Shown piece by piece: positions 4,519-48,510 of a stretch of DNA of 64,000 bases (positions are counted from its first letter, which is position 1; every line of letters starts with the position of its first letter). A model generated the notes under the pieces. It had not been told where the DNA came from. It did no database searches and worked only from the letters and a program-made list of their open reading frames with translations. The position numbers and the translations under genes are program-made. The stretch lies in the NCBI RefSeq assembly GCF_054482595.1, contig NZ_CM137008.1; one strand, written 5' to 3'.

Positions 4519-5082
4519 GTGCCTGAACGCGGATTCACACTTCTGGAAATCATGCTGGTGATTTTCCTTATCGGCCTTGCCAGTGCGGGCGTGGTACAGA
4601 CGTTTGCGACCGATTCTGAATCGCCCGCGAAAAAAGCGGCGCAGGATTTTCTGACTCGCTTTGCGCAGTTTAAAGACAGGGCAGTGATCGAAGGGCAGAC
4701 ACTCGGTGTACTAATCGACCCGCCGGGATACCAGTTTATGCAGCGTCGTCAGAGGCAGTGGTTGCCCGTTTCTGCGACCCGGTTATCGGCACAGGTTACG
4801 GTGCCGAAACAGGTGCAGATGCTGTTACAACCCGGAAGTGATATCTGGCAGAAGGAATATGCGCTGGAGCTGCAACGTCGTCGCCTGACGCTGCACGATA
4901 TTGAACTGGAGTTGCAAAAAGAGGCGAAAAAGAAGACGCCGCAGATCCGTTTTTCGCCTTTTGAACCCGCCACGCCGTTTACGCTGCGCTTCTACTCAGC
5001 GGCGCAAAACGCATGTTGGGCGGTAAAACTGGCACACGATGGCGCGTTATCCCTCAGTCAATGTGATGAGAGGATGCCATGA
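4519..5082 (+). CDS. gspH: Minor pseudopilin GspH
   Basis: GTG start; N-terminus GFTLLEIMLVIFLIGL prepilin motif; operon position. Confidence 0.85.
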   Translation: MPERGFTLLEIMLVIFLIGLASAGVVQTFATDSESPAKKAAQDFLTRFAQFKDRAVIEGQTLGVLIDPPGYQFMQRRQRQWLPVSATRLSAQVTVPKQVQMLLQPGSDIWQKEYALELQRRRLTLHDIELELQKEAKKKTPQIRFSPFEPATPFTLRFYSAAQNACWAVKLAHDGALSLSQCDERMP

Positions 5083-5450
5083 AGCGCGGATTTACCTTGC
5101 TGGAAGTGATGCTCGCACTGGCGATTTTTGCGCTGGCTGCCACGGCGGTGTTACAGATTGCCAGCGGTGCGCTGAGTAATCAGCACGTTCTTGAGGAGAA
5201 AACGGTAGCAGGCTGGGTGGCTGAAAACCAGACCGCGCTGCTCTACCTGATGACCCATGAACAACGGGCGGTCAGGCATCAGGGCGAGAGCGATATGGCT
5301 GGAAGCCGCTGGTACTGGCGAACCACACCGCAGAATACAGGCAACGCGCTGCTCCAGGCGGTGGATATTGAAGTCAGCCTTCACGAAGACTTTTCGTCGG
5401 TAATTCAGTCACGACGCGCCTGGTTTAGCGCCGTGGGAGGCCAACAGTGA
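5079..5450 (+). CDS. gspI: Minor pseudopilin GspI
   Basis: N-terminus MKRGFTLLEVMLALAIFALA; 4-bp overlap with gspH. Confidence 0.85.
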   Translation: MKRGFTLLEVMLALAIFALAATAVLQIASGALSNQHVLEEKTVAGWVAENQTALLYLMTHEQRAVRHQGESDMAGSRWYWRTTPQNTGNALLQAVDIEVSLHEDFSSVIQSRRAWFSAVGGQQ

Positions 5451-6052
5451 GAAGGACTCGCGCTGGTTTCACGTTACTGGAAATGCTGGTGGCGATAGCC
5501 ATTTTTGCCTCACTGGCACTGATGGCGCAGCAGGTGACAAACGGCGTCACACGTGTGAATAGTGCCGTCGCCGATCACGATCAAAAACTAAACCTCATGC
5601 AGCAAACGATGAGTTTTCTGACCCACGATCTGACACAAATGATGCCGCGTCCGGTAAGAGGCGATCAGGGCCAGCGTGAATCAGCGTTACTGGCGGGCGC
5701 TGGCGTGCTGGCGTCTGAGAGTGAAGGAATGCGCTTTGTACGCGGCGGCGTGGTTAATCCGTTGATGCGTCTGCCGCGCAGTAATCTGCTCACCGTCGGT
5801 TACCGCATTCATGACGGTTATCTCGAACGGTTAGCCTGGCCGCTGACCGACGCAGCAGGCAGCGTGAAGCCAACAACGCAAAAGTTGATTCCGGCGGATT
5901 CGCTCCGTTTGCAGTTCTACGACGGCACACGCTGGCAGGAGAGCTGGTCATCACTTCAGGCGATCCCAGTGGCGGTACGCATGACCCTGCACTCGCCGCA
6001 ATGGGGCGAGATTGAACGCATCTGGTTGTTACGCGGGCCGCAATTATCATGA
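5447..6052 (+). CDS. gspJ: Minor pseudopilin GspJ
   Basis: GTG start; N-terminus AGFTLLEMLVAIAIFASL; overlaps gspI stop. Confidence 0.85.
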   Translation: MRRTRAGFTLLEMLVAIAIFASLALMAQQVTNGVTRVNSAVADHDQKLNLMQQTMSFLTHDLTQMMPRPVRGDQGQRESALLAGAGVLASESEGMRFVRGGVVNPLMRLPRSNLLTVGYRIHDGYLERLAWPLTDAAGSVKPTTQKLIPADSLRLQFYDGTRWQESWSSLQAIPVAVRMTLHSPQWGEIERIWLLRGPQLS

Positions 6053-24429: not shown

Positions 24430-25047
24430 TCAGTTACGGTTATCGTCAACCGTTGTGCGGTATGCCAGGAGCACGTACTGATCCATCAGATCCGCCAGTG
24501 CTGCGTTCTGCTTCTGACGGTCGATGATCCATTCCCCCAGCTCTTTTTCTGATTTACGTTTCAGGTTCTCCGTCCAGTCGTCAAGGCTGTTTCCGGTCAT
24601 TAAATCAAGCCAGCAAAGCCAGACCAGTTTGAGGCGCAACTCAGTGCCACCAAACTGACGGAAGAGGCTGATCAGTTTATTTGCCAGAGAACGCCGCCTC
24701 AGACGTTCACATTCAGACAGCAGAATGCCTTCCAGCATCGGATGATGAACCAGCAGATGTTCGCTGGTGCATAAGTTCACCACCAGATCATCATCCAGGG
24801 GCGGCGTGGCCCGTTTGTCAGAGCCATAAATCAGCCGGTGCAGACTCCGGGGGACGATGGCAATCTCCGGTTTTTCACCATTGAATGACACCCACCCGGG
24901 CGTCAGATTATGGAAGTAGTGGATATTCGGATGACATACGCCCCAGGATACGGCGTGCCGGGTGAAGCCGGTCAGCCATTTCTGGTAGCTTTCGTGGAGC
25001 AGCTCGTAACGGGTCTGATACTGTGGTTTCATTTTCATATTCCTCAC
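24430..25047 (-). CDS. Hypothetical protein (205 aa) downstream of alpA
   Basis: ORF co-oriented with the AlpA-like gene; not recognised. Confidence 0.5.
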   Translation of the reverse strand: MRNMKMKPQYQTRYELLHESYQKWLTGFTRHAVSWGVCHPNIHYFHNLTPGWVSFNGEKPEIAIVPRSLHRLIYGSDKRATPPLDDDLVVNLCTSEHLLVHHPMLEGILLSECERLRRRSLANKLISLFRQFGGTELRLKLVWLCWLDLMTGNSLDDWTENLKRKSEKELGEWIIDRQKQNAALADLMDQYVLLAYRTTVDDNRN

Positions 25048-25125: not shown

Positions 25126-25335
25126 TTACGGACGGGACTGTGCAATACGCGCCTGCAGCCAGGCTTCCACTTCACTTTTCAGCCAGCGGGAGCTGCGGCC
25201 AAGTTTGATGGGAGCCGGAAAGGCCCCATCCTTGATGAGCTTGTAAAACCACTTATCGGTCAGGCCGGTCAGCTGAGTGATAAACGCCATATCGACCATC
25301 TGGTCATCCATCAGCGAAACTGGGGGGGGGGTCAT
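25126..25335 (-). CDS. alpA: AlpA-family phage/island transcriptional regulator
   Basis: 69 aa with AlpA-type HTH (ITQLTGLTDKWFYKLIKDGAFPAPIKLGRSSRWLKSEVEAWL); codons 2-5 lie within a C10 homopolymer. Confidence 0.8.
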   Translation of the reverse strand: MTPPPVSLMDDQMVDMAFITQLTGLTDKWFYKLIKDGAFPAPIKLGRSSRWLKSEVEAWLQARIAQSRP

Positions 25336-26409
25336 AAAAATCTCCTCCGGATGTTGTTAATCTCAACCGGCGTTGATGATGAAAACAACGCACCACCTTC
25401 ACCGGCATAACAACCGGGGAGAAACGTAAAAAATCAGTAGGGGAATATTCCTGCCAGGAGAGAAACGGTTGTGTACAGGCAATACAGGTTGTCTGTTTTG
25501 TCAGTGAAGCCGGTATAAACGGAAGATGATTTTGTGTTGCCGGAATATGGGATGGTATTTTGTCGTGACGGAATCAGTATTTTCAGTGATGATTATTACT
25601 GCGCAGGGGAGTACCGGAGAGAAACCACGCCCTGTACCTGCCAGAGCGGTGGTTTGTATTGACTGAACGGAAGATAAAGCGAGGTAAACACTGTTGTGGT
25701 GAGCGGAGAAGACTGAGATTATTCTCTGTAATTACAAACAACAGTGATCTTATCCGGTTTTTTTACCGTTACGGGTTTCAGGGGATCAATTTTATAGACC
25801 GGGGTAATGACCACGCCGTAATTTATGGAGAAAAGCGGGATCCAGCAATAAACGTCAGGATATTTCTGTGTCTCCGGAATACCTTTTGTGCCAGAGGCCA
25901 TCAGATCTTTAACGCTCACGAAAAATGACTTCCGCAGATCAAAAAAGTACTCGTTATATATCACATCCTTTGCCAGCAGGATGACTGCATTACCAACAGC
26001 CGATTTTACAGGTGTTTCATCAGGTGGATTATCGTGATTGTATATTGTTCTTTCTATATAAATAAAACAGGCATATTTCGTCTTCTCCCCGGATAGTTGC
26101 ATCTGGTATTCGCAAATGTCTTTGATATACCGACTTTCAACCCTTCCAATCATCTTATCCCGGCGATAGTGTCTTTTATGTTTCAGCGCGTACAGAACAC
26201 CATTTGAACTGTCAAACTCCAGGACACTTCTGGTGAAAAGTTTGTTTTCCCAGATCTCCAGACAATACTTCTCTGCACTGACGACATTGCGTTTGTGGGG
26301 AAGATTCCGTTGATACACTCCATTTAATAAGCGTGACTGCAGTTCGCCTGCAAGTTGATAGTAACAGTTAATGTCATTAAGGACAGGTGCTGTGGCGTTG
26401 GATTTGCCC

Positions 26410-27315
26410 CTATATTTCCAGACACCTGTTATCACTTAACCCATTACTGGCTTGCTGCCGTAGATATTCCCGTGGCGAGCGATAACCCAGTGCACTATGC
26501 GGATGCCATTCGTTATAATGCTCGAATGCCTCTGCAAGGTTCTTTGCTGCCGTTAACCCGTCTGGTTTGGGCATGACACTGATGTAGTCACGCTTTATCG
26601 TTTTCACGAAGCTCTCTGCTATGCCGTTACTCTCCGGACTCCGCACCGCCGTGTTCTTCGGTTCAAGCCCCAACATCCGGGCAAACTGCCGTGTTTCATT
26701 AGCCCGGTAGCATGAACCATTATCCGTCAGCCACTCTACTGGAGACGCCGGAAGCTCGTTGCCGAAACGGCGTTCCACCGCTCCCAGCATGACGTCCTGT
26801 ACTGTTTCACTGTTGAAGCCGCCCGTAGTGACCGCCCAGTGCAGTGCCTCACGGTCACAGCAGTCCAGCGCGAACGTGACTCGCAGTTTTTCTCCGTTAT
26901 CACAGCGGAACTCGAACCCGTCAGAGCACCATCGCTGATTACTTTCTTTCACAGCCACTCTGCCGGTATGTGCCCGTTTCGATGGCGGTACAGCGGGTTT
27001 TCGCTCAAGCAACAGCGCATTCTGGCGCATGATCCGGTAAATACGTTTGGCATTGATCGCAGGCATACCATCAAGTTCGGCCTGTCTGCGAAGCAGCGCC
27101 CATACCCGACGATAACCATATGTGGGCAGCTCTCCGATAACATGGTGTATACGGAGAAGCACATCCGTATCATCTGAGTGACGGCTGCGGCGACCATCTT
27201 TCCAGTCATCGGTTCGTCTGAGAATGACGTGCAACTGCGCACGCGACACCCGGAGACAACGGCTGACTAAGCTTACTCCCCATCCCCGGGCAATAAGGGC
27301 GCGTGCGCTATCCAC
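26410..27315 (-). CDS. insD: IS2 transposase OrfB (InsD), normally expressed by frameshifting from orfA
   Basis: 301 aa with DDE catalytic core, matching IS2 InsD as recalled. Confidence 0.9.
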
Positions 27316-27638
27316 TTTTTTGCACGCCCGTATTCAACGGCTTCTTTAAGGAGTTCATTTTCCATCGTTTTTTTGCCGAGCAGGCGCTGGAGTTCTTTAA
27401 TCTGCTTCATGGCGGCAGCAAGTTCAGAGGCAGGAACGACCTGTTCTCCTGCGGCCACAGCAGTAAGACTTCCCTCCTGGTATTGCTTGCGCCAGAGAAA
27501 TAACTGGCTGGCTGCCACACCGTGTTGCCGGGCAACAAGGGAGACTGTCATTCCCGGTTCAAAACTCTGCTGAACAATAGCGATCTTTTCCTGTGTAGTA
27601 CGCCGTCTGCGTTTCTCCGGTCCTAAGACATCAATCAT
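27273..27638 (-). CDS. insC: IS2 transposase OrfA (InsC)
   Basis: [47 protein letters not shown]... matches IS2 InsC as recalled. Confidence 0.9.
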
Positions 27639-28180
27639 CTGCTCTCCAATGACTAGTCTAAAAACTAGTATTAAGACTATCACTTAAATAAGTGATATTG
27701 GTTGTCTGGAGATTCAGGGGGCCAGTCTAGGCGTTGAGTAATGTGTTGATTACCTTAGAGCGCGAAAGTTTGTGGGTATGACAGTACTCATCCACAATTC
27801 GCAGTGTCTCATCACTGGTCATATTGAAAGTTATACGTGTTGTCATGATGAAGTTTTCTGTTAATCATACTGGTTGATATGCATAACATTTCATAAAAAA
27901 TACTGTTAATTCATATAATTGATTTTTTGACTGGTTTTATCCTCGTGTGGTGGAAAGCAGTATTACTGCCACTGTAGTCAGCATAAATCTATCACACAGA
28001 ACCACCGAAAATGAAGCATTGCTCAGGGGGAAGCTGCCACTCGTATGAGTTCTCTGAACCATGATAACCAGTATTTTTCGTTTTGGGTGATTTGTTTATC
28101 GTTACAGCTACATACAGTTCATGTACCATTAAAAAATAATAAAGGTTAATTAGTATTATTTATAGAAGTATGTTTATGTA

Positions 28181-28480
28181 ATTCTACCGTGTAAATGAAC
28201 CCTGTAATTCTACCTTGTAAATACACCTTGTAACCAAGTCCTGTAGAAGTCTGTCTCATAGAGGTATCTGTGCAGTGATATTCTCTGTAGTAGTACTTGT
28301 AACTCTGTTCTTAACTCTCTCTTCAGTAATGTAGTCCCGCAACACCTGAATATAAATCTGTAATGTTCACACACTGACTGTAACGTGCTTTGTTAAGTAA
28401 TGTCTGCTATTTTTTTTCTGTTATTTTTCCTGTTGTTTTCTGTATTTTGTTGTATGGTGTAATAACTATTCTGAACCCGT
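28181..28480. repeat. Array of short phased YTGTA/CTGT-containing repeats in an ORF-poor AT-rich segment
   Basis: Tandem copies of CTGTAATTCTACC(G/T)TGTAAAT at 28181-28225, then recurring CTGTA/TGTAA/CTGTT motifs every 10-13 bp. Confidence 0.4.
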
Positions 28481-29262
28481 CATCACCTTTATAGCTAAGA
28501 GTATGACTTCGCCAGTGTTGATACTGTGGATAACGGTGATTAAGGAATTACTGTTAATGATCTGTTCCTGCAGCTCACCTGATGAGTTTTGGTAGTAATA
28601 CGTAAAAGAGTATGCCTCATGTCATTAAAAAGTCTTCCGGAGTGTTGTTTAACCCTGTACCTCTGTTACTCATGTAGTACGTTGCGGAAAGCTACGTTAA
28701 TTGTAATATCTGGTTATGGCGTTATGCCTTCAGTATTAAAAACATCTTTTACCGGAGAAACTGGGAAGTGGAAAGGCTTTCGGGATAACGTCAGGCCATT
28801 ATGACGATATTACGTTAATCACAGTACAAGATAACGAGAGGGTAATGGAATTTTAAACCAGAGTAGTTCCACTGTTGTTCACTGGAAAAAGTGATTTCCC
28901 ACGCGCGTTATAAGCTTACTCCAGAGGAGATGGAAGCCTTCAACTCTGCGGTCGATCACCGGCTGGCAGAACTGACCATGAACAAACTTTACGATCGTGT
29001 TCCCGCTTCAGTCTGGAAATATGTTACCTGATAAATGTTTCTGATGAAGTACAGTCGTCACAATGACATCACTTCAGATATTATCTGCGCTGTGATTGAC
29101 TGTCACGTATGCCGTTCTCTGTATGGTTCTGATACCCGGGTGTGGTCCCACTTTCTCTGTGGCGCCCGGGGAGTTGTGAACCTGCACGTCTTCGTGTGAT
29201 AACGTTTTCTTCAAAAATTACGCCAGCGCTTCTTCCTGTGTTACAGAACACGAGGAAGAAAC

Positions 29263-29862
29263 ATGAAGACTTACAACACCAATCCCGGTTACGAAATGGA
29301 TCCCCAGCTCCTGACACACTTTAACCAGCATCTGGATTCATTATTCGGGGTATATTCGAAACTGTTACCGTTCAGAATGGATTTTGCTTACCGAAAAAAC
29401 ACCCTCAGCTACAGATGTGCCTGCAGGTACGCCATGTGCGCGGAGATACTGCGACTGATTAACGAAGTGGGAGAGAAACTGGTCGGGTATGCCTGGGTAA
29501 TGGAATATACGGAACGTAAAGGGCTTCACATTCATTTTGTGGGCTATCTGAACGGTCAGAGCCACAGGAGTTCGTATCTGGTATCCAGATTGATGGGAGA
29601 TATCTGGAGGCGGGTTACCGGGGGTGATGGTTACTACCACTGGTGCCGGTTTAATAAAAATTATCCGGTAAACATTAACCACGTCATTCACTATTCAGAT
29701 CACAAAGCGGTGAATGCCTTACGCTATGCCCTCAGCTACCTGGCCAAACGAGAACAGAAAGAATGTGGCATCATCCTGAAATGCAGCGGGCTTCCTGAAA
29801 AAAGTAACCGGGGTCGACCGCGACTGGGCAGCACCCTGCCGGAGACTTATTCTCTGGTGTAA
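29263..29862 (+). CDS. Rep-like protein, putative inovirus Gp2 / YagK-YfjJ family (HIH motif)
   Basis: 199-aa ORF with GAGGAAG RBS; motif GLHIHFVGYLNG; shares a pattern with ORFs at 31511 and 47998. Confidence 0.5.
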   Translation: MKTYNTNPGYEMDPQLLTHFNQHLDSLFGVYSKLLPFRMDFAYRKNTLSYRCACRYAMCAEILRLINEVGEKLVGYAWVMEYTERKGLHIHFVGYLNGQSHRSSYLVSRLMGDIWRRVTGGDGYYHWCRFNKNYPVNINHVIHYSDHKAVNALRYALSYLAKREQKECGIILKCSGLPEKSNRGRPRLGSTLPETYSLV

Positions 29863-30233
29863 GACCCTGAACGACAACTACGGGCTGGCGCTAATTGTTA
29901 CGGTCGGTTCCGGAGGCCACTTCAGGGACTCTGCGCATTTTTTACGACATGGCTATTCCGTATGAACCATACGGAGATTTAACCATGGCACATTCTTTAC
30001 CATTCCTTCCGGCAACCGATACAGCGCATCCTCCGATGTCCATCCCTGCCTGCTGACAGTTTTTTACGCCGGTGGGCCATTGTGTGACAACCACAGTGCT
30101 GTAACAGCAACCAGCCTGCTTTACCCAAACTCCAGTCCAGATTTTAACTGAACCGCCATTCACACCCTGACCACACTGCCCGTACCGGGACAGCTGTTGC
30201 CTGCGTGTCGTCTGGCTGCTGAGGAATATGACG

Positions 30234-30617
30234 ATGTACGCAAAATCCTTTATTGCATTTGATGGCAACGGGCGTCTGACGGGTGCCCGTACCGCACAGA
30301 CTGCACCTTACGATCGCTACACTTGCCACCTTTGCGGCAGTGCGCTCAGATACCACCCGCAATACGACACTGAGCGTCCCTGGTTTGAACACACTGACAA
30401 CGGGCTGACGGAGCACGGTCAGCAGTGCCCTTATGTCAGACCGGAACGCAGGGAGATACAACTGATTAAGCGTTTGCAGCAATTCGTACCGGATGCCTTA
30501 CCCGTGGTGCGTAAAGCCAGCCGGCACTGCAGACAATGTCATCACGATTATTATGGGGAGCGGTACTGCACGCACAGCCATACCGGGCACTTCAGTGAGG
30601 AGGGGGTGGCAGAATGA
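30234..30617 (+). CDS. Cys-rich putative zinc-binding protein (paralog 1)
   Basis: CHLCGSALRYH...WFEHTD and CRQCHHDYYGERYC motifs; ATG 30234 has better RBS spacing than 30228. Confidence 0.5.
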   Translation: MYAKSFIAFDGNGRLTGARTAQTAPYDRYTCHLCGSALRYHPQYDTERPWFEHTDNGLTEHGQQCPYVRPERREIQLIKRLQQFVPDALPVVRKASRHCRQCHHDYYGERYCTHSHTGHFSEEGVAE

Positions 30618-31039
30618 ACGGTATAAAAACGGGGCTGGGGATCACGCCGGGTGAACACATTATCAGTGCTGATTCTGCGCTCAGCAGAAATATCCGGCAG
30701 TGTTTCTGCCTTTCCTGTCATGGCCGGTTGATTTTGCAGACAGATGCTCAGGGGGCGTGGTTTGAGCACGATTTACATGTCCTGAGCGAGCAACAGAAGG
30801 CAGCCTGCGTGGTGCTGAATCCGGAAAAGTCCCACCCTTACATTGAGGATATGGAGATGTTTTTATCGCCATTACCGGTCGTGCTGGAGTGGCATTGTGT
30901 GATGTGTGAGCAGTTTTTTCATGGGAAGAAATTCTGTGAGGCCTGTGGTACGGGGATTTATTGCAGAGCGGTATGTACGAAGTCTGTTTACAGCTACCAG
31001 CCAGACTTGTTTCAGGACTGCGGAGGTGCGAGTACTTAA
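30614..31039 (+). CDS. Cys-rich putative zinc-binding protein (paralog 2)
   Basis: CLSCHGRLILQ...WFEHD and CVMCEQ...CEACGTGIYC motifs; start overlaps the previous stop by 4 bp. Confidence 0.5.
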   Translation: MNGIKTGLGITPGEHIISADSALSRNIRQCFCLSCHGRLILQTDAQGAWFEHDLHVLSEQQKAACVVLNPEKSHPYIEDMEMFLSPLPVVLEWHCVMCEQFFHGKKFCEACGTGIYCRAVCTKSVYSYQPDLFQDCGGAST

Positions 31040-31510
31040 TCCGAAATCTCCGCTCTGCGCAGGGCGTTCAGAGATATCGCAACCTGCATTTTATCCGGTG
31101 TTTCGCACCTGCCCCGTTCGTGACACAAAGGCGTGACACCGGATATCCGCAGTCCTGCTTACCTGAATAAAACCCGGGGTATTGATTGTGTACTGTGGTG
31201 CGAAATCGCACCGTGATCGCGGATTCGCCGAATCCGCACTGTGGTGTCAACCAACCATACGCGAGAGTCCTCTCCGTATTTATCAGTGCCTCAGGACGAT
31301 TTCTGCATAGTTAATCCAGGGGGCTGCATTGTTTATTTCCCTGCTAATGGATGTGACATCCAGGATATTCATGATCCTGATTTCCCTGAGCAGTATCAGC
31401 GCTTATTGGCACGTCTGGATTATCTGACGAAGCCCGATGCTAAAGCATCAGGTCAGCGTAACTCTGGCTACAGCGGTTTTTGACCTGTTGTAACTGTAAG
31501 GTGATTTATT

Positions 31511-32077
31511 ATGTATACAGAATCAAACGTTAAGCTTTCCTGTAACGCCCTCTGGCAAAAGTGTGTCCTTGCAACTCTGTATCGGGCTGCAGCCACACAT
31601 CCTGAAATTAAATTATTACAATTTAAATTAATACCAGGACAGGGTATTAATAAGGCCATTCCCTCTCTGATGGCTGATTTTACTGGTGAACTGCATAGAC
31701 TCATTTCTGAATATTTGCAGTGTAAGCGACGTAAAGATAAATCTGTTGAGCCCACCCCTTTATATTATCTCTGGAGTAGGGAGGCTGTGGCTAACGATAC
31801 CACTCCTTATCTTATGGTGCTGCTACTTAATAACGATGTCTGGTGTAAGAGTCGTGAGGTGGTGGTTCTCAGAAATCTGATTGAGCAGGCGTGGGGAAAA
31901 GTATTGGGTGAAGATAACTCCATTACACATCTGGTTGTGTATCCTGAAGTGCTGTCGTTGGTATTTGATGCAGCTAACACATACAACGCTGAGCCTGGTG
32001 TACTGGAACAGACGGCCCAGGCTTACATTGAATCGCATGGTGCCATTGAACGTCATCTTGGGTGTAGTGACTTTTAA
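31511..32077 (+). CDS. Hypothetical protein, second Rep-like (Gp2-family-like) paralog
   Basis: 188-aa ORF with pattern GINKAIPSLMADFTGELHRLISEY...PYLMVLLLNND resembling the 29263 and 47998 ORFs. Confidence 0.45.
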   Translation: MYTESNVKLSCNALWQKCVLATLYRAAATHPEIKLLQFKLIPGQGINKAIPSLMADFTGELHRLISEYLQCKRRKDKSVEPTPLYYLWSREAVANDTTPYLMVLLLNNDVWCKSREVVVLRNLIEQAWGKVLGEDNSITHLVVYPEVLSLVFDAANTYNAEPGVLEQTAQAYIESHGAIERHLGCSDF

Positions 32078-32407
32078 CGTCAGGTGATGCATAAGGGCCT
32101 TTCGCTGAGAGGCCCTGTTTACACAATTAAATAAATCGAGCCCGACCAACAATTTTGATGTTAACAGCAGGATTATTGAGGGGCAATCAATGTGTTCTTC
32201 GGTAGCGATTACGGTAGTGAACGGACCTGCTGTCTGAATGGCATCGATCCGCAAGCGTATCGGCGCCATATTCTGAGCGTACTACTGAAATGGCTAATGG
32301 CAGTAAAGAGAGACTTTACGTATATTTGCATAAAGCAGGATTTTACGACTAGTCAACATTCTTTATAATTCTTCAGGTTCAGAGTATCTGACATATAGGG
32401 TTATGTA

Positions 32408-33124
32408 TTGGGGAGACATTTAATGTTTGGCCATCTGTTACGATACTTTAGTTTCTGTAAAAAAGATTTATTAGTATTTCATCCTGAATCTGATTACTCA
32501 GATAATTTACATAAAGCCTTCTCTTTTACAAAAAGGCTAGGATTTAATGAAGAATGGAATGGGGTCACAAAAAACAAAGAATATGATTATCAGGATGTCT
32601 TCAGTCATGTCTGTCTGCAGTCTGGTGTGACAGACTTTTCCGCTTCAGCAGGACAATGCTTAAAGTGGAGTCATTATTTTCAGCCATATTTTGAGAATAT
32701 CCTTGAATGTCGGGTATGGGTTACCGTTGGACAACTCTGGAAACAGGAACGATTTATTTACAATCCGTCAGTTGCGGATTTTCAGCGCTGGTCTGAAAAA
32801 GGGATTCAGCCTGAAGATTTTAGACATCACTCGGGGTTTAACTTTCATGCGTGGTTGACGACGGAAAATGGTGTGATTGTGGATGTTTCCTTTATGAGTA
32901 CGTTATCGCGGCGATTACCTGAACACCTGAGTGAAGTCAGTGGAAGTGTGATTATTGGCACGCCAGAGACGGTTCTTCCTGAGTATAAATATGTTCCCAT
33001 GATTGTCGGTCAGAGGATTGTTGAGAAAATAGAAAAACGCTCTTTCATTGGTTTTCTGGCGCACGACGATATTGATTTATATACAGTACCTGCAATCTTG
33101 GTTCCGGTATGGAAAGAATGTTAA
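32408..33124 (+). CDS. Hypothetical protein (238 aa), ORFan
   Basis: Long ORF in AT-rich DNA with balanced protein-like composition; no recognisable motif. Confidence 0.45.
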   Translation: MGRHLMFGHLLRYFSFCKKDLLVFHPESDYSDNLHKAFSFTKRLGFNEEWNGVTKNKEYDYQDVFSHVCLQSGVTDFSASAGQCLKWSHYFQPYFENILECRVWVTVGQLWKQERFIYNPSVADFQRWSEKGIQPEDFRHHSGFNFHAWLTTENGVIVDVSFMSTLSRRLPEHLSEVSGSVIIGTPETVLPEYKYVPMIVGQRIVEKIEKRSFIGFLAHDDIDLYTVPAILVPVWKEC

Positions 33125-33443
33125 AGCACGGAATAACACTATGCACTTACCGCTTTCCGGAACTCAGCTTGTTACCTGAGCGGTCAACAGAGCAGTCTTT
33201 CAGTGTCTGCACTTGGTTGCCACTAAACCGGAGTCATTTATCAGAAGTATATGTTCATGGAAGGATATTGTCAGCGCCAGTGATATAAGACGGTAATGAG
33301 GATAGCCATCCCGCATGGGTTTCCTCAACACTGGTCACTGTGACAAGCGCACCATGATCGTCTTTGTATCGCTGATTGACTTTCGATAATAGAACATCTT
33401 CTGACATAAATTTTAGTACGGTAACAATTAACTAAATTTTCAT

Positions 33444-35590: not shown

Positions 35591-35859
35591 TACACCAGCG
35601 AAACCACACAGGTAGCTATTACCATATGTGGTAATACACTAGTTACAGGAAAAACATGCAGGTTCCGCAATACGTTGTGTGTTGCTGCTTAGTCAGGATC
35701 TTTTCTTCCATGCGAGATACGACAACACTTTTGAGGAAAGATGTTCACAACTGGTGGGGCGATTGCAACAGGTTTGTGCAGAACTCCCCCCGGATGGCAA
35801 TGCAGGGGGGAAAGGATTTTTCAGGTTGACCGCCCAGGTACATCAAATCAGTATGCTGC

Positions 35860-36585
35860 TCACGCCTGACGGTGCGATGAGTAATGTATTTCATACTCTT
35901 CCCGGTAGAGAGTTTCCCCCCAAAGAACCGGTTTATTCTCAGCAGTCAAATAAGTATGTTGTCGTACCAGAATTGGGCGGGAACGCTTTATTTTCAGCTT
36001 CTGGGCCGCATCCCGGCTGGGCAGCGCCACATGAACCTGGTTGGCAATTGTCTGTATCTCTATGCGAAGTGCCTGCTCAAAAATGTTTTGCAACGCATGG
36101 ACTTCCAGTTCCTGCTTATCTATTTGCAGGGCAAGAATTGAAGGCATATAACGAATTTCGAATGCAATTGGCTGCTGATTTATCAAGCGCAACCTTAACA
36201 GCCGATGGATGCTCTCTTTGCCTGATAACATCAGTTTTGTCCGTAAGAGTTCTGACGTTGAGACAGGTGCGAATTCGACGAGTTGATATTCGAGGTGTTT
36301 GTCGACACCAACCAGATCTTTTTCAAAAAATCCAAGAGATTGCGTATCCATTACGGTGATAATGGAAGGTTTTTTAACGAAGGTTCCACGTCCCCGAATG
36401 CGTTCAATCAATCCATCCGTAAGAAGACCCTGCATCGCATGGACCACTGTCGCTCGGGTGGTATTAAATTGGGCTGCAAGTTCGTTTTCAGAAGGTAAGC
36501 GTTCGCCTTGTTTATATACATTTTGTGCTATTCCATTGCGTAATGCTTCTCTGATCTGCAGGTAAATTGGCAAATTGCGATGCAT
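35860..36585 (-). CDS. GntR-family transcriptional regulator (HutC/UTRA-type)
   Basis: N-terminal winged HTH (LPSENELAAQFNTTRATVVHAMQGLLTDGLIERIRGRGTFV) and a C-terminal effector domain; divergent from the amidohydrolase gene. Confidence 0.85.
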   Translation of the reverse strand: MHRNLPIYLQIREALRNGIAQNVYKQGERLPSENELAAQFNTTRATVVHAMQGLLTDGLIERIRGRGTFVKKPSIITVMDTQSLGFFEKDLVGVDKHLEYQLVEFAPVSTSELLRTKLMLSGKESIHRLLRLRLINQQPIAFEIRYMPSILALQIDKQELEVHALQNIFEQALRIEIQTIANQVHVALPSRDAAQKLKIKRSRPILVRQHTYLTAENKPVLWGETLYREEYEIHYSSHRQA

Positions 36586-47997: not shown

Positions 47998-48510
47998 TCA
48001 CCTGGCTATTGTTGCCATAACGGGTAACATAAGGGACTGAACAGTTGTCTTTAGCACAACGAACTGATCTAATGTACCTGAACGGTCAACCTGAAAACAG
48101 CTTTCCAACCGACATTGTCCGCCAGCGTTTATCCCCGACCAGGTCTGTTGCAGTAAATCCACCACTTGCGAACATTCTTCATCAACTGTGGCACTGACCC
48201 GCAGATGGCAAATGCTCGCCTGGCTGAGCAGCAACAGGCATCGTATTGTTGCTTCTCCATGTTGTTCCAGCAACCAGCGTAATACCACCGGCGGTGCTGG
48301 ACTGGCAGTGTGATTACGCTCAGTAATATGTTCTTGCACCTGTCGGTAAAAGGCAGTACAGAATGCATGAATCTGTTGCCCGTTGATGTTTCCTTCTGCC
48401 GAATAGAGCGTGAAGTGGACTGCCAGCAGACGCGGCCAGTGGTCCACCGCCTGCTGAACAAAACGCCAGATATCTCCCGGCTCTGAAAGTAACGCTTCGG
48501 TTATTTGCAC
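47998..48510 (-). CDS. Hypothetical protein, third Rep-like (Gp2-family-like) paralog
   Basis: 170-aa ORF with pattern GNINGQQIHAFCTAFYRQVQEH...IRCLLLLSQAS resembling the ORFs at 29263 and 31511. Confidence 0.4.
   Translation of the reverse strand: MQITEALLSEPGDIWRFVQQAVDHWPRLLAVHFTLYSAEGNINGQQIHAFCTAFYRQVQEHITERNHTASPAPPVVLRWLLEQHGEATIRCLLLLSQASICHLRVSATVDEECSQVVDLLQQTWSGINAGGQCRLESCFQVDRSGTLDQFVVLKTTVQSLMLPVMATIAR

What the first reader, a model, noticed from the sequence alone, without database searches (positions are those of the whole stretch)
29263..33124. Co-oriented cluster of Rep-like paralogs, Cys-rich paralogs and an ORFan
Five plus-strand genes lie in AT-rich DNA. Two of them (29263, 31511), and a third at 47998-48510 elsewhere, share a pattern (G..IN...F....EY/EH...P...W..E......L.LLL) that resembles the inovirus Gp2 / YagK-YfjJ family. 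The 238-aa protein at 32408-33124 has no recognisable features. No known function can be assigned to the cluster, so it is a candidate accessory system.
Basis: inference. Interest (0 to 1): 0.5.

Follow-up and report, generated by a model that had tools for sequence, protein, structure and literature searches.

The report
Genomic-island backbone genes, not one system
The five genes are a patchwork stretch of the backbone of a very common E. coli genomic island: a probable DNA-nicking enzyme with its zinc-ribbon partners, decayed and inactive copies of that enzyme, and an unrelated swapped-in enzyme gene, so this is largely ordinary and not a new five-gene system.

Summary
The window is E. coli chromosome. 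Region 29263-33124 lies in a CP4-57/SRL-type integrative island, between the AlpA gene and cargo.

- **Observation, partly confirmed.** Five co-oriented ORFs exist. 29263 (199 aa) and 31511 (188 aa) hit Pfam YagK_YfjJ_C, but only at profile level. The two Cys-rich proteins are true paralogs (Zn_ribbon_11 + DUF7828). The "third paralog" at 47998 is on the minus strand and has no hit in the Pfam library searched here. The DNA is only mildly AT-rich (47% vs 51% GC).
- **HUH gene.** The 199-aa protein keeps all three HUH endonuclease motifs. In 11 of 17 related loci with downstream sequence it is followed by zinc-ribbon genes. An AlpA gene follows it in 15 of 16 loci outside E. coli. Pieces of this module occur in 71% of complete E. 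coli genomes.
- **Inactive copy and relics.** The 188-aa protein has lost the HUH histidines and the tyrosine, yet has dN/dS of about 0.15. Two relics of further copies flank it.
- **The "ORFan".** It is not an orphan: 90 homologous clusters, invariant Cys and His, and a confident model resembling transglutaminase/papain-like enzymes. It replaces a different cassette and occurs in only 82 genomes.

Best reading: an island replication or mobilisation module, plus relics and cargo. The nicking function is inferred, not shown.

The parts
28891..29031 (+). Short Hha/YmoA-like ORF (46-49 aa). It covers only the C-terminal two thirds of Hha.
   Evidence: NCBIfam Hha 4.5e-21, profile positions 28-71 of 72. 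Pfam HHA. RefSeq annotates a 49-aa product. The SRL island has the same Hha / YfjJ-like adjacency.
29263..29862 (+). 199-aa HUH (Rep-type) endonuclease-like protein with all catalytic motifs and a basic G-RPR tail.
29905..30016 (+). Relic of the upstream region and first codons of a second, tandem HUH gene, lying in the spacer before Zn1.
   Evidence: 81% identity to L026 4894-5007, which spans the start of the HUH gene (4977-5546) of the common E. coli array. Tandem HUH genes occur in L016, L024 and L025.
30228..30617 (+). Zinc-ribbon / DUF7828 protein 1 (129 aa).
   Evidence: Pfam Zn_ribbon_11 and DUF7828. Conserved CxxC..FEH..C and CxxC..Y.G..CxxC motifs; this copy reads CTHSH at the last pair. 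dN/dS 0.11 against L026.
30614..31039 (+). Zinc-ribbon / DUF7828 protein 2 (141 aa). It is a paralog of the first and overlaps it by 4 nt.
   Evidence: BLASTP E 1e-9 against Zn1. Pfam hits. dN/dS 0.24.
31241..31483 (+). 3' relic of a YagK/YfjJ-type gene. The Tyr motif RLDYLTK is still readable.
   Evidence: It is the third YagK_YfjJ_C hit in the region. It aligns to the C-terminus of K-12 YagK and YfjJ. dN/dS about 1.0, from 11 non-synonymous and 3 synonymous changes. A full-length 204-aa gene occupies this place in strain C7.
31511..32077 (+). 188-aa YagK/YfjJ-like protein without HUH histidines or catalytic Tyr; a non-catalytic paralog.
   Evidence: Pfam YagK_YfjJ_C 7.6e-10. It reads TPYLMV and VLEQTAQ where K-12 YagK has HYHICL and RLDYLTK. 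dN/dS 0.10-0.18 in six pairwise comparisons. Found in 1255 of 5426 genomes.
32408..33124 (+). 238-aa protein (RefSeq start 32423, 233 aa): uncharacterised family with a transglutaminase/papain-like fold and a probable Cys84-His147-Asp159 triad. It is a cargo cassette.
33296..33400 (-). DUF4222 gene fragment; the conserved right flank of the variable slot.
   Evidence: 86% identity to L026 9661-9776. RefSeq annotates a pseudogene.
25126..25335 (-). AlpA-family regulator (69 aa). In other genera it lies between the HUH and zinc-ribbon genes.
   Evidence: Pfam Phage_AlpA on the identical-context gene. It clusters with 68-94-aa ORFs placed 550-920 bp from the HUH start, same strand, in 13 of 16 other loci, after a second HUH copy in two more, and upstream on the opposite strand in L011.
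24430..25047 (-). 205-aa protein of unknown function that travels with the module.
   Evidence: Homologs lie just downstream of the HUH / zinc-ribbon genes in L010, L012, L014 and L015.
47998..48510 (-). Here it is displaced from the array it usually belongs to.
   Evidence: Precomputed PF27752 on all listed relatives; the name UCP030791 comes. No hit in the Pfam library searched here. hhalign against YagK-like: E 0.0078, probability 5%. In L026-L030 this family directly follows the 188-aa gene.

Best explanation
The five ORFs are not one system. They are a mosaic stretch of the conserved backbone of a CP4-57 / SRL-type integrative genomic island.

**Functional core.** The core is the 199-aa HUH endonuclease and the two DUF7828 zinc-ribbon proteins. 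In other Enterobacterales these sit in one co-oriented gene string with the excision regulator AlpA.

**Proposed mechanism (inferred, not shown).** After AlpA-driven excision, the HUH protein is guided by the zinc-ribbon proteins and its basic C-terminal tail. It nicks one strand of the circular island at an origin and becomes covalently linked through Tyr159. This starts rolling-circle-type replication that amplifies the island for onward transfer.

**The other pieces.**
- 31511 encodes a non-catalytic paralog. It is kept under purifying selection and probably binds the same DNA or partners as a regulator.
- 29905-30016 and 31241-31483 are relics of further HUH-type genes.
- 32408-33124 is unrelated cargo: a transglutaminase/papain-like Cys-His-Asp enzyme that has replaced another cassette in a variable slot.
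For: **Island context**
- RefSeq annotation of a copy 99.7-100% identical over window 12464-48400, and of its left flank in that strain, shows Ag43, GTPase, DUF932, antirestriction, JAB/RadC-like (YeeS-type), CbtA/CbeA and a helix-turn-helix regulator that is AlpA by Pfam.
- The SRL island has the same YfjJ-like / Hha / AlpA order.
- A preprint on a related island class lists inovirus Gp2-like, alpA, RadC and intY as likely core functions.

**HUH protein**
- Pfam Rep and YagK hits.
- Motifs conserved across genera: RxDFxY, HuH and YLxK.
- Fold hits to Rep and NS1 nuclease domains.

**Module synteny**
- Zinc-ribbon genes follow the HUH gene in 11 of 17 loci that have downstream sequence, in about ten genera.
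- An AlpA homolog follows the HUH gene on the same strand in 15 of 16 loci outside E. coli.
- GTPase, DUF932-like (weak match) and RadC genes lie upstream on the opposite strand.
- An Acinetobacter plasmid shows the same Gp2-like / DUF932 / lambda-exonuclease neighbourhood.

**Selection and mosaicism**
- dN/dS: Zn1 0.11, Zn2 0.24, inactive paralog 0.10-0.18, relic about 1.
- Cassette replacement and relics.
- Unequal prevalence: 3836, 1255 and 82 genomes.
Against: - No nicking, replication or expression data exist for any member.
- No origin-like hairpin or iteron was found. Repeat and k-mer scans of the spacers and upstream regions gave nothing shared across genera.
- In E. coli, AlpA has been separated from the HUH gene by rearrangement.
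- Many E. coli copies of the HUH gene are frameshifted, so the function may be dispensable or decaying in this species.
- Related islands also carry DUF3987-type proteins (YfjI in CP4-57), which could supply replication instead.
Confidence: 0.5

Rival explanations
1. The HUH protein is a relaxase-like nickase. It mobilises the excised island as single-stranded DNA through a helper conjugative element, rather than acting as a replication initiator. The zinc-ribbon proteins would be relaxosome accessory factors.
For: The module sits next to genes annotated as antirestriction, DUF932, RadC-type and GTPase. From general knowledge, not tested here, such genes are typical of the leading regions of conjugative elements. 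Of 108 plasmids with a homolog, 80 are typed mobilizable. Phage records almost never carry the gene: 2 of 50,697.
Against: The Pfam and fold matches are to Rep-type proteins, not to relaxases. No coupling protein or mating-pore genes are nearby. The mobility typing of those plasmids rests on other genes. The one plasmid inspected was typed non-mobilizable. A related island class is reported to move by phage transduction.
Confidence: 0.2
2. One reading: the five genes act together as one accessory system, for example anti-phage.
For: The genes are co-oriented and closely spaced. Island slots of this kind often carry defence genes: AbpAB and RnlAB lie beside yfjJ in CP4-57. A 35%-identical homolog of the 238-aa protein lies just after a CBASS operon and beside TIR-domain genes.
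Against: No PADLOC match for any protein. The five genes do not co-occur outside a small set of E. coli genomes: 29 genomes carry at least 80% of the segment. The HUH / zinc-ribbon pair occurs without the others in other genera. The 238-aa gene occurs with quite different neighbours. Two pieces are relics. The 238-aa gene has its own promoter-like site at 32342-32369.
Confidence: 0.06
3. The Rep-like genes are decaying leftovers of an integrated filamentous phage (inovirus) and have no present function.
For: The family name and Pfam link to inovirus Gp2. Relics and frameshifted copies are frequent. One paralog has lost its catalytic residues.
Against: No inovirus morphogenesis or coat genes are annotated nearby. 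Only 2 phage records match. Synteny with AlpA and zinc-ribbon genes holds across genera. dN/dS is well below 1 for the zinc-ribbon genes and the inactive paralog. The catalytic motifs of the HUH protein are conserved.
Confidence: 0.05
4. The HUH protein is a nuclease used against other DNA rather than for the island's own propagation. It could attack incoming single-stranded phage or plasmid DNA, or act as a domesticated transposase-like enzyme on repeats.
For: It is a small stand-alone HUH domain (199 aa) with no helicase or primase domain. From general knowledge, that size is similar to Y1 transposases of the IS200/IS605 type. Its island neighbourhood is rich in conflict genes.
Against: There is no Pfam match to Y1 transposases and no defence-model match. 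No associated repeated palindromes were found. The tight linkage to AlpA points to the island's own life cycle.
Confidence: 0.12

Closest known systems
E. coli K-12 YagK (CP4-6) and YfjJ (CP4-57), Pfam PF11726 YagK_YfjJ_C, annotated 'inovirus-type Gp2 protein'
   Same: Both are island-borne proteins of about 200 aa. 31511, the relic at 31241 and, weakly, 29263 match the Pfam family. K-12 YagK and YfjJ carry HYH and DY[LM]TK motifs at the positions where 29263 has HIH and SYLAK.
   Different: 29263 is a distinct subfamily: about 24% identity to K-12 YagK in the multiple alignment. It is paired with zinc-ribbon genes, which the K-12 genes lack. 31511 has lost both motifs. None of these proteins has a tested function.
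HUH rolling-circle replication initiators (Pfam PF23343 REP_ORF2-G2P; parvovirus NS1 and AAV Rep nuclease domains by fold)
   Same: Three-motif architecture with two metal-binding histidines and a Tyr-x-x-Lys motif, on a ferredoxin-like fold.
   Different: There is no helicase domain and no identified origin. The protein sits in a chromosomal island, not a phage or plasmid replicon. Sequence similarity is marginal (E about 1e-4). The second tyrosine (Y155) is Phe in several genera, so only one catalytic Tyr is likely.
CP4-57 / SRL pathogenicity island / Pseudomonas I23-I44-I55 class of integrase + AlpA islands
   Same: They share core genes: AlpA, RadC-type, DUF932, GTPase, Gp2-like and Hha-like.
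   Different: In this copy AlpA is inverted away from the HUH gene, an IS interrupts a backbone gene, and no integrase is annotated in the stretch examined (window about 12.5-64 kb). In other strains the same 188-aa and 233-aa gene pair abuts a P4-type integrase.
Transglutaminase/papain-like cysteine enzymes (Salmonella SseI deamidase domain, LapG-type bacterial transglutaminase-like proteases, protein glutaminases)
   Same: For the 238-aa protein: an invariant Cys in a GQC context and an invariant His in HAW followed by Asp/Glu. The structural neighbours are consistently of this superfamily.

Membership tests
YagK/YfjJ (Pfam PF11726) | Significant match to the family profile | tested here: met
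   31511: 7.6e-10. 29263: 4.4e-4. The relic 31241-31483 is the third member with E <= 0.001.
YagK/YfjJ (Pfam PF11726) | The same profile match for the claimed third paralog, 47998-48510 | tested here: not met
   No Pfam hit even at E <= 10. hhalign E 0.0078, probability 5%. A few database sources name close relatives 'inovirus Gp2 family protein'.
HUH endonuclease superfamily | His-hydrophobic-His metal-binding motif | tested here: met
   29263 has HIH. H89 is 17/18 and H91 18/18 across genera. For 31511 the feature is not met: it reads PYL in that place.
HUH endonuclease superfamily | Catalytic Tyr in a Y-x-x-K motif on a helix C-terminal to the HUH strand | tested here: met
   29263 has SYLAK. 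Y159 and K162 are 17/18 and lie in helix 147-161 of the model. For 31511 the feature is not met: it reads LEQTAQ.
HUH endonuclease superfamily | Ferredoxin-like alpha+beta nuclease fold | tested here: inconclusive
HUH endonuclease superfamily | Site-specific single-strand cleavage with a covalent 5'-phosphotyrosine link | not testable with these tools
   This needs biochemistry.
Inovirus (filamentous phage) replication protein Gp2 | Located in a filamentous-phage genome with morphogenesis and coat genes | tested here: not met
   No such genes are annotated within 15 kb either side. Only 2 of 50,697 phage records hold a relative.
Zn_ribbon_11 / DUF7828 | Profile match and conserved Cys/His ligands | tested here: met
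   Best E-values are 3.8e-15 and 4.1e-31, and both proteins match. CxxC..FEH..C plus CxxC..CxxC are conserved, but Zn1 of the window has lost the last Cys.
Transglutaminase/papain-like cysteine hydrolases (for 32408-33124) | Cys-His-Asp/Glu residues conserved in family order on the papain-like core | tested here: met
Transglutaminase/papain-like cysteine hydrolases (for 32408-33124) | Match to a curated sequence profile of the superfamily | tested here: not met
   No Pfam, NCBIfam, PHROG or PADLOC hit. The PDB sequence search gave nothing meaningful.
Known anti-phage defence systems (PADLOC-DB) | Any component matching a defence model | tested here: not met
   Zero hits for all eight proteins at E <= 0.1.

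The most novel reading that the evidence does not exclude
The HUH-AlpA-zinc-ribbon gene string is the so far unrecognised replication or mobilisation engine of the CP4-57/SRL class of islands, which are present in most E. coli. If so, these 'cryptic prophages' would be active elements driven by HUH-type nicking. A second, independent possibility is that the 238-aa transglutaminase-like protein is a new single-gene enzyme of phage-host or plasmid-host conflict.
Probability: 0.3. Interest if true: 0.6.

Novelty: new member of a known kind. Interest (0 to 1): 0.3.

Why it matters
Islands of this class carry virulence, resistance and defence cargo in most E. coli, yet how they replicate and move after excision is poorly understood. 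An intact HUH nickase tied to AlpA across Enterobacterales gives a concrete, testable candidate for that step. The fold assignment gives a first handle on an uncharacterised protein family found across Proteobacteria. As a finding about this window, though, it is an ordinary, already annotated backbone segment with relics.

Tried and rejected
- Pairwise BLASTP among the three 'paralogs' found nothing significant.
- PDB sequence searches with both family profiles gave no meaningful hits.
- Rfam on 22-34 kb found no RNA family.
- Repeat and inverted-repeat scans of 28.7-33.4 kb found only short, chance-level pairs and no origin-like hairpin.
- A shared 11-mer scan of the 1.2 kb upstream of the HUH gene in 16 loci found only a block shared by a subgroup, not including the window.
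- The terminator scan was at chance level. The promoter-like count (18 vs 10.7 +/- 3.5 in shuffles) was about two standard deviations above chance and was not followed up, apart from the site upstream of the 238-aa gene.
- I looked for fusion proteins linking the HUH and zinc-ribbon domains. The candidates P0037, P0042 and P0046 are deletion or frameshift artefacts.
- I first read the motif as a two-tyrosine type (YxxxYxxK). I dropped this because the first Tyr is Phe in several genera.
- Contexts of four homologs of the 238-aa protein lay on contigs too short to be informative.
Full report
**Where we are**

The 4.6-kb segment around the finding matches E. coli chromosomes at 99-100% identity. 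Parts of it occur in 4347 of 5426 complete genomes, but only 29 carry at least 80% of it in one place.

A copy in strain Santai is 99.7-100% identical over window 12464-48400. Its RefSeq annotation places the segment in a CP4-57-like island:
- On one side, read on the opposite strand: JAB/RadC-like (YeeS-type), antirestriction, DUF932, DUF905, Ag43 and GTPase genes, with CbtA/CbeA further out in the same strain. A helix-turn-helix regulator follows; by Pfam in identical contexts it is AlpA.
- Then the finding's genes.
- On the other side: IS elements and metabolic cargo (citrate lyase, acnB).

The Shigella SRL island shows the same local order of YfjJ-like, Hha-like and AlpA genes. A preprint on Pseudomonas islands lists an inovirus Gp2-like protein with intY, alpA, RadC and YqaJ as likely core functions, without testing it.

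**The observation**

The five plus-strand ORFs are real.

- *Cys-rich pair.* The two proteins are paralogs (31% identity, E 1e-9) of the Zn_ribbon_11/DUF7828 type.
- *Rep-like pair.* 29263 hits REP_ORF2-G2P and YagK_YfjJ_C weakly. 31511 hits YagK_YfjJ_C at 7.6e-10. The two are not similar by BLASTP; profile-profile comparison gives E 3.5e-4 with a collinear alignment.
- *Claimed third paralog.* 47998-48510 is on the minus strand. It has no hit in the Pfam library searched here and only a weak profile match to the YagK-like set (E 0.0078, probability 5%). Of two elements tested separately, 'G.IN' is in 31511 and 47998 only, and 'L.LLL' is in none.
- *Base composition.* The region is 47.1% GC against 50.7% for the window. 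Only the last gene is clearly AT-rich, at 39.6%.

**The HUH protein and its partners**

An alignment of 17 relatives and a second alignment of 18 proteins from other genera show three conserved motifs:
- SKLLxxRxDFxY, with R38, D40 and Y43 invariant.
- H-u-H, with H89 in 17/18 and H91 in 18/18. The one exception is a frameshifted copy.
- LSYLxK, with Y159 and K162 in 17/18.

A conserved basic G-RPR/G-RRR tail follows. A second tyrosine four residues upstream is Phe in several genera, so a single catalytic tyrosine is likely.

A scan of one genome per species found 18 loci in Enterobacterales.
- In 11 of the 17 with downstream sequence, the HUH gene is followed on the same strand by one or two zinc-ribbon genes.
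- In 15 of the 16 loci outside E. coli that carry it, a 68-94-aa AlpA homolog follows the HUH gene on the same strand. In 13 of them it starts within about 100 bp of the HUH stop; in two it comes after a second HUH copy. Where zinc-ribbon genes are present, AlpA lies between HUH and them.
- GTPase, RadC and (by a weak match) DUF932-like genes lie upstream on the opposite strand.
- An Acinetobacter plasmid shows the same Gp2-like / DUF932 / lambda-exonuclease neighbourhood.

The conserved unit is therefore HUH-AlpA-zinc ribbon(s). In E. coli, AlpA and a 205-aa gene have been inverted away from it. The zinc-ribbon proteins share CxxC..FEH..C and CxxC..Y.G..CxxC motifs. They evolve under purifying selection, with dN/dS 0.11 and 0.24 against a diverged E. 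coli copy.

**Relics and the inactive paralog**

I compared the window with the common E. coli array (L026: HUH189-Zn127-Zn141-YagK fragment-YagK188-UCP030791-207aa-77aa-DUF4222).
- 29905-30016, in the spacer after the HUH gene, corresponds to the start of L026's own HUH gene. It is a relic of a second tandem copy. Tandem copies exist in three other genera.
- The relic at 31241-31483 has dN/dS of about 1 on few changes. It is a full-length 204-aa gene in strain C7.
- The 188-aa protein reads TPYLMV and VLEQTAQ where YagK has HYHICL and RLDYLTK. It cannot be an HUH nuclease. Its dN/dS is 0.10-0.18 in six comparisons, so it is probably a maintained non-catalytic protein.

**The 238-aa 'ORFan'**

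It has no hit in Pfam, NCBIfam, PHROGs or PADLOC. An exhaustive search of 1.8 billion representatives finds 90 clusters, 53 of them at E <= 1e-10. In 48 aligned members, Cys84 (in a GQC context), His147 (in HAW-T) and Asp/Glu159 are essentially invariant.

The gene occupies a variable slot. Between the same flanks (the 188-aa gene and the DUF4222 fragment) the common array carries UCP030791-207aa-77aa instead. It occurs in only 82 of 5426 genomes, always on the chromosome. It is almost absent from plasmids and absent from phages.

Its homologs sit among changing neighbours on mobile elements:
- just after a CBASS operon and among TIR-domain genes;
- beside resolvase, SRAP, UmuDC and ArdC genes;
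- beside a Schlafen/AlbA_2 protein;
- beside a PRTRC ubiquitin-like system.

There is no constant partner.

**The 'third paralog'**

All listed relatives of 47998-48510 carry the precomputed family PF27752, named UCP030791 in the context tables. In other E. coli islands this family directly follows the 188-aa gene. It is therefore a regular member of the array that is displaced here beside IS66 remnants. A second, partial copy lies at 35622-35860. Homology to YagK-like proteins remains unproven.

**Interpretation**

The parts differ strongly in distribution: 3836, 1255 and 82 genomes. Only the HUH / zinc-ribbon part is syntenic across genera. No part matches a defence model. The cluster is a mosaic of island backbone, relics and cargo.

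The most likely working part is the HUH nickase with its zinc-ribbon partners. They probably act on the excised island to start replication. A relaxase-like role in transfer is the main rival. This mechanism rests on what is established for HUH enzymes in general, on the intact motifs and on the AlpA linkage. No origin was found, and no experiment exists.

**Verdict**

This is an ordinary segment, already annotated at family level. Interest is modest.

Noticed in passing
window 26401-27729: A 1.3-kb IS3-family insertion (ORFs of 136 and 301 aa) is absent from the otherwise near-identical Santai copy. It interrupts the 263-aa UCP007319 backbone gene, leaving a 238-aa ORF at 25719-26435.
   Followed up: partly
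window 35622-35860 (+): A partial second copy of the UCP030791 family (45-56% identity to residues 73-152 of the 47998 protein) lies just past ISEc38. It overlaps a spurious 226-aa ORF.
   Followed up: no
window 30228-30617: Zn1 of this window reads CTHSH where relatives have C-x-x-C. One predicted zinc ligand of the C-terminal ribbon is therefore lost.
   Followed up: no
L038-L040, 4712-8735: A 35%-identical homolog of the 238-aa protein lies 78 bp after a SMODS-HORMA-AAA-DUF6602 (CBASS-like) gene string and is followed by several TIR-domain genes. It could be part of that system or only a neighbour.
   Followed up: no
window 27730-28880: A 1.1-kb stretch with no gene annotated in the Santai copy, 37% GC, lies upstream of the Hha-like and HUH genes and holds a cluster of promoter-like sites. 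A comparable gene-free gap precedes the HUH gene in other E. coli arrays.
   Followed up: no
window 30995-31047: A 53-nt piece at the end of Zn2 matches, at 98% identity, a site annotated gspC in another E. coli strain (hit H73). This is unexplained.
   Followed up: no
AFDB50 hits A0A1C3RLV3 and A0AB73G0Q2: Two structural relatives of the 238-aa protein are named 'TmRNA' in UniProt. This is probably a mis-annotation of genes lying in islands integrated next to ssrA.
   Followed up: no
L033 and L034, 7248-10452: In some strains the 188-aa and 233-aa gene pair lies directly beside a P4-type integrase at the island end, after an IS66. This shows how freely this backbone is rearranged.
   Followed up: no
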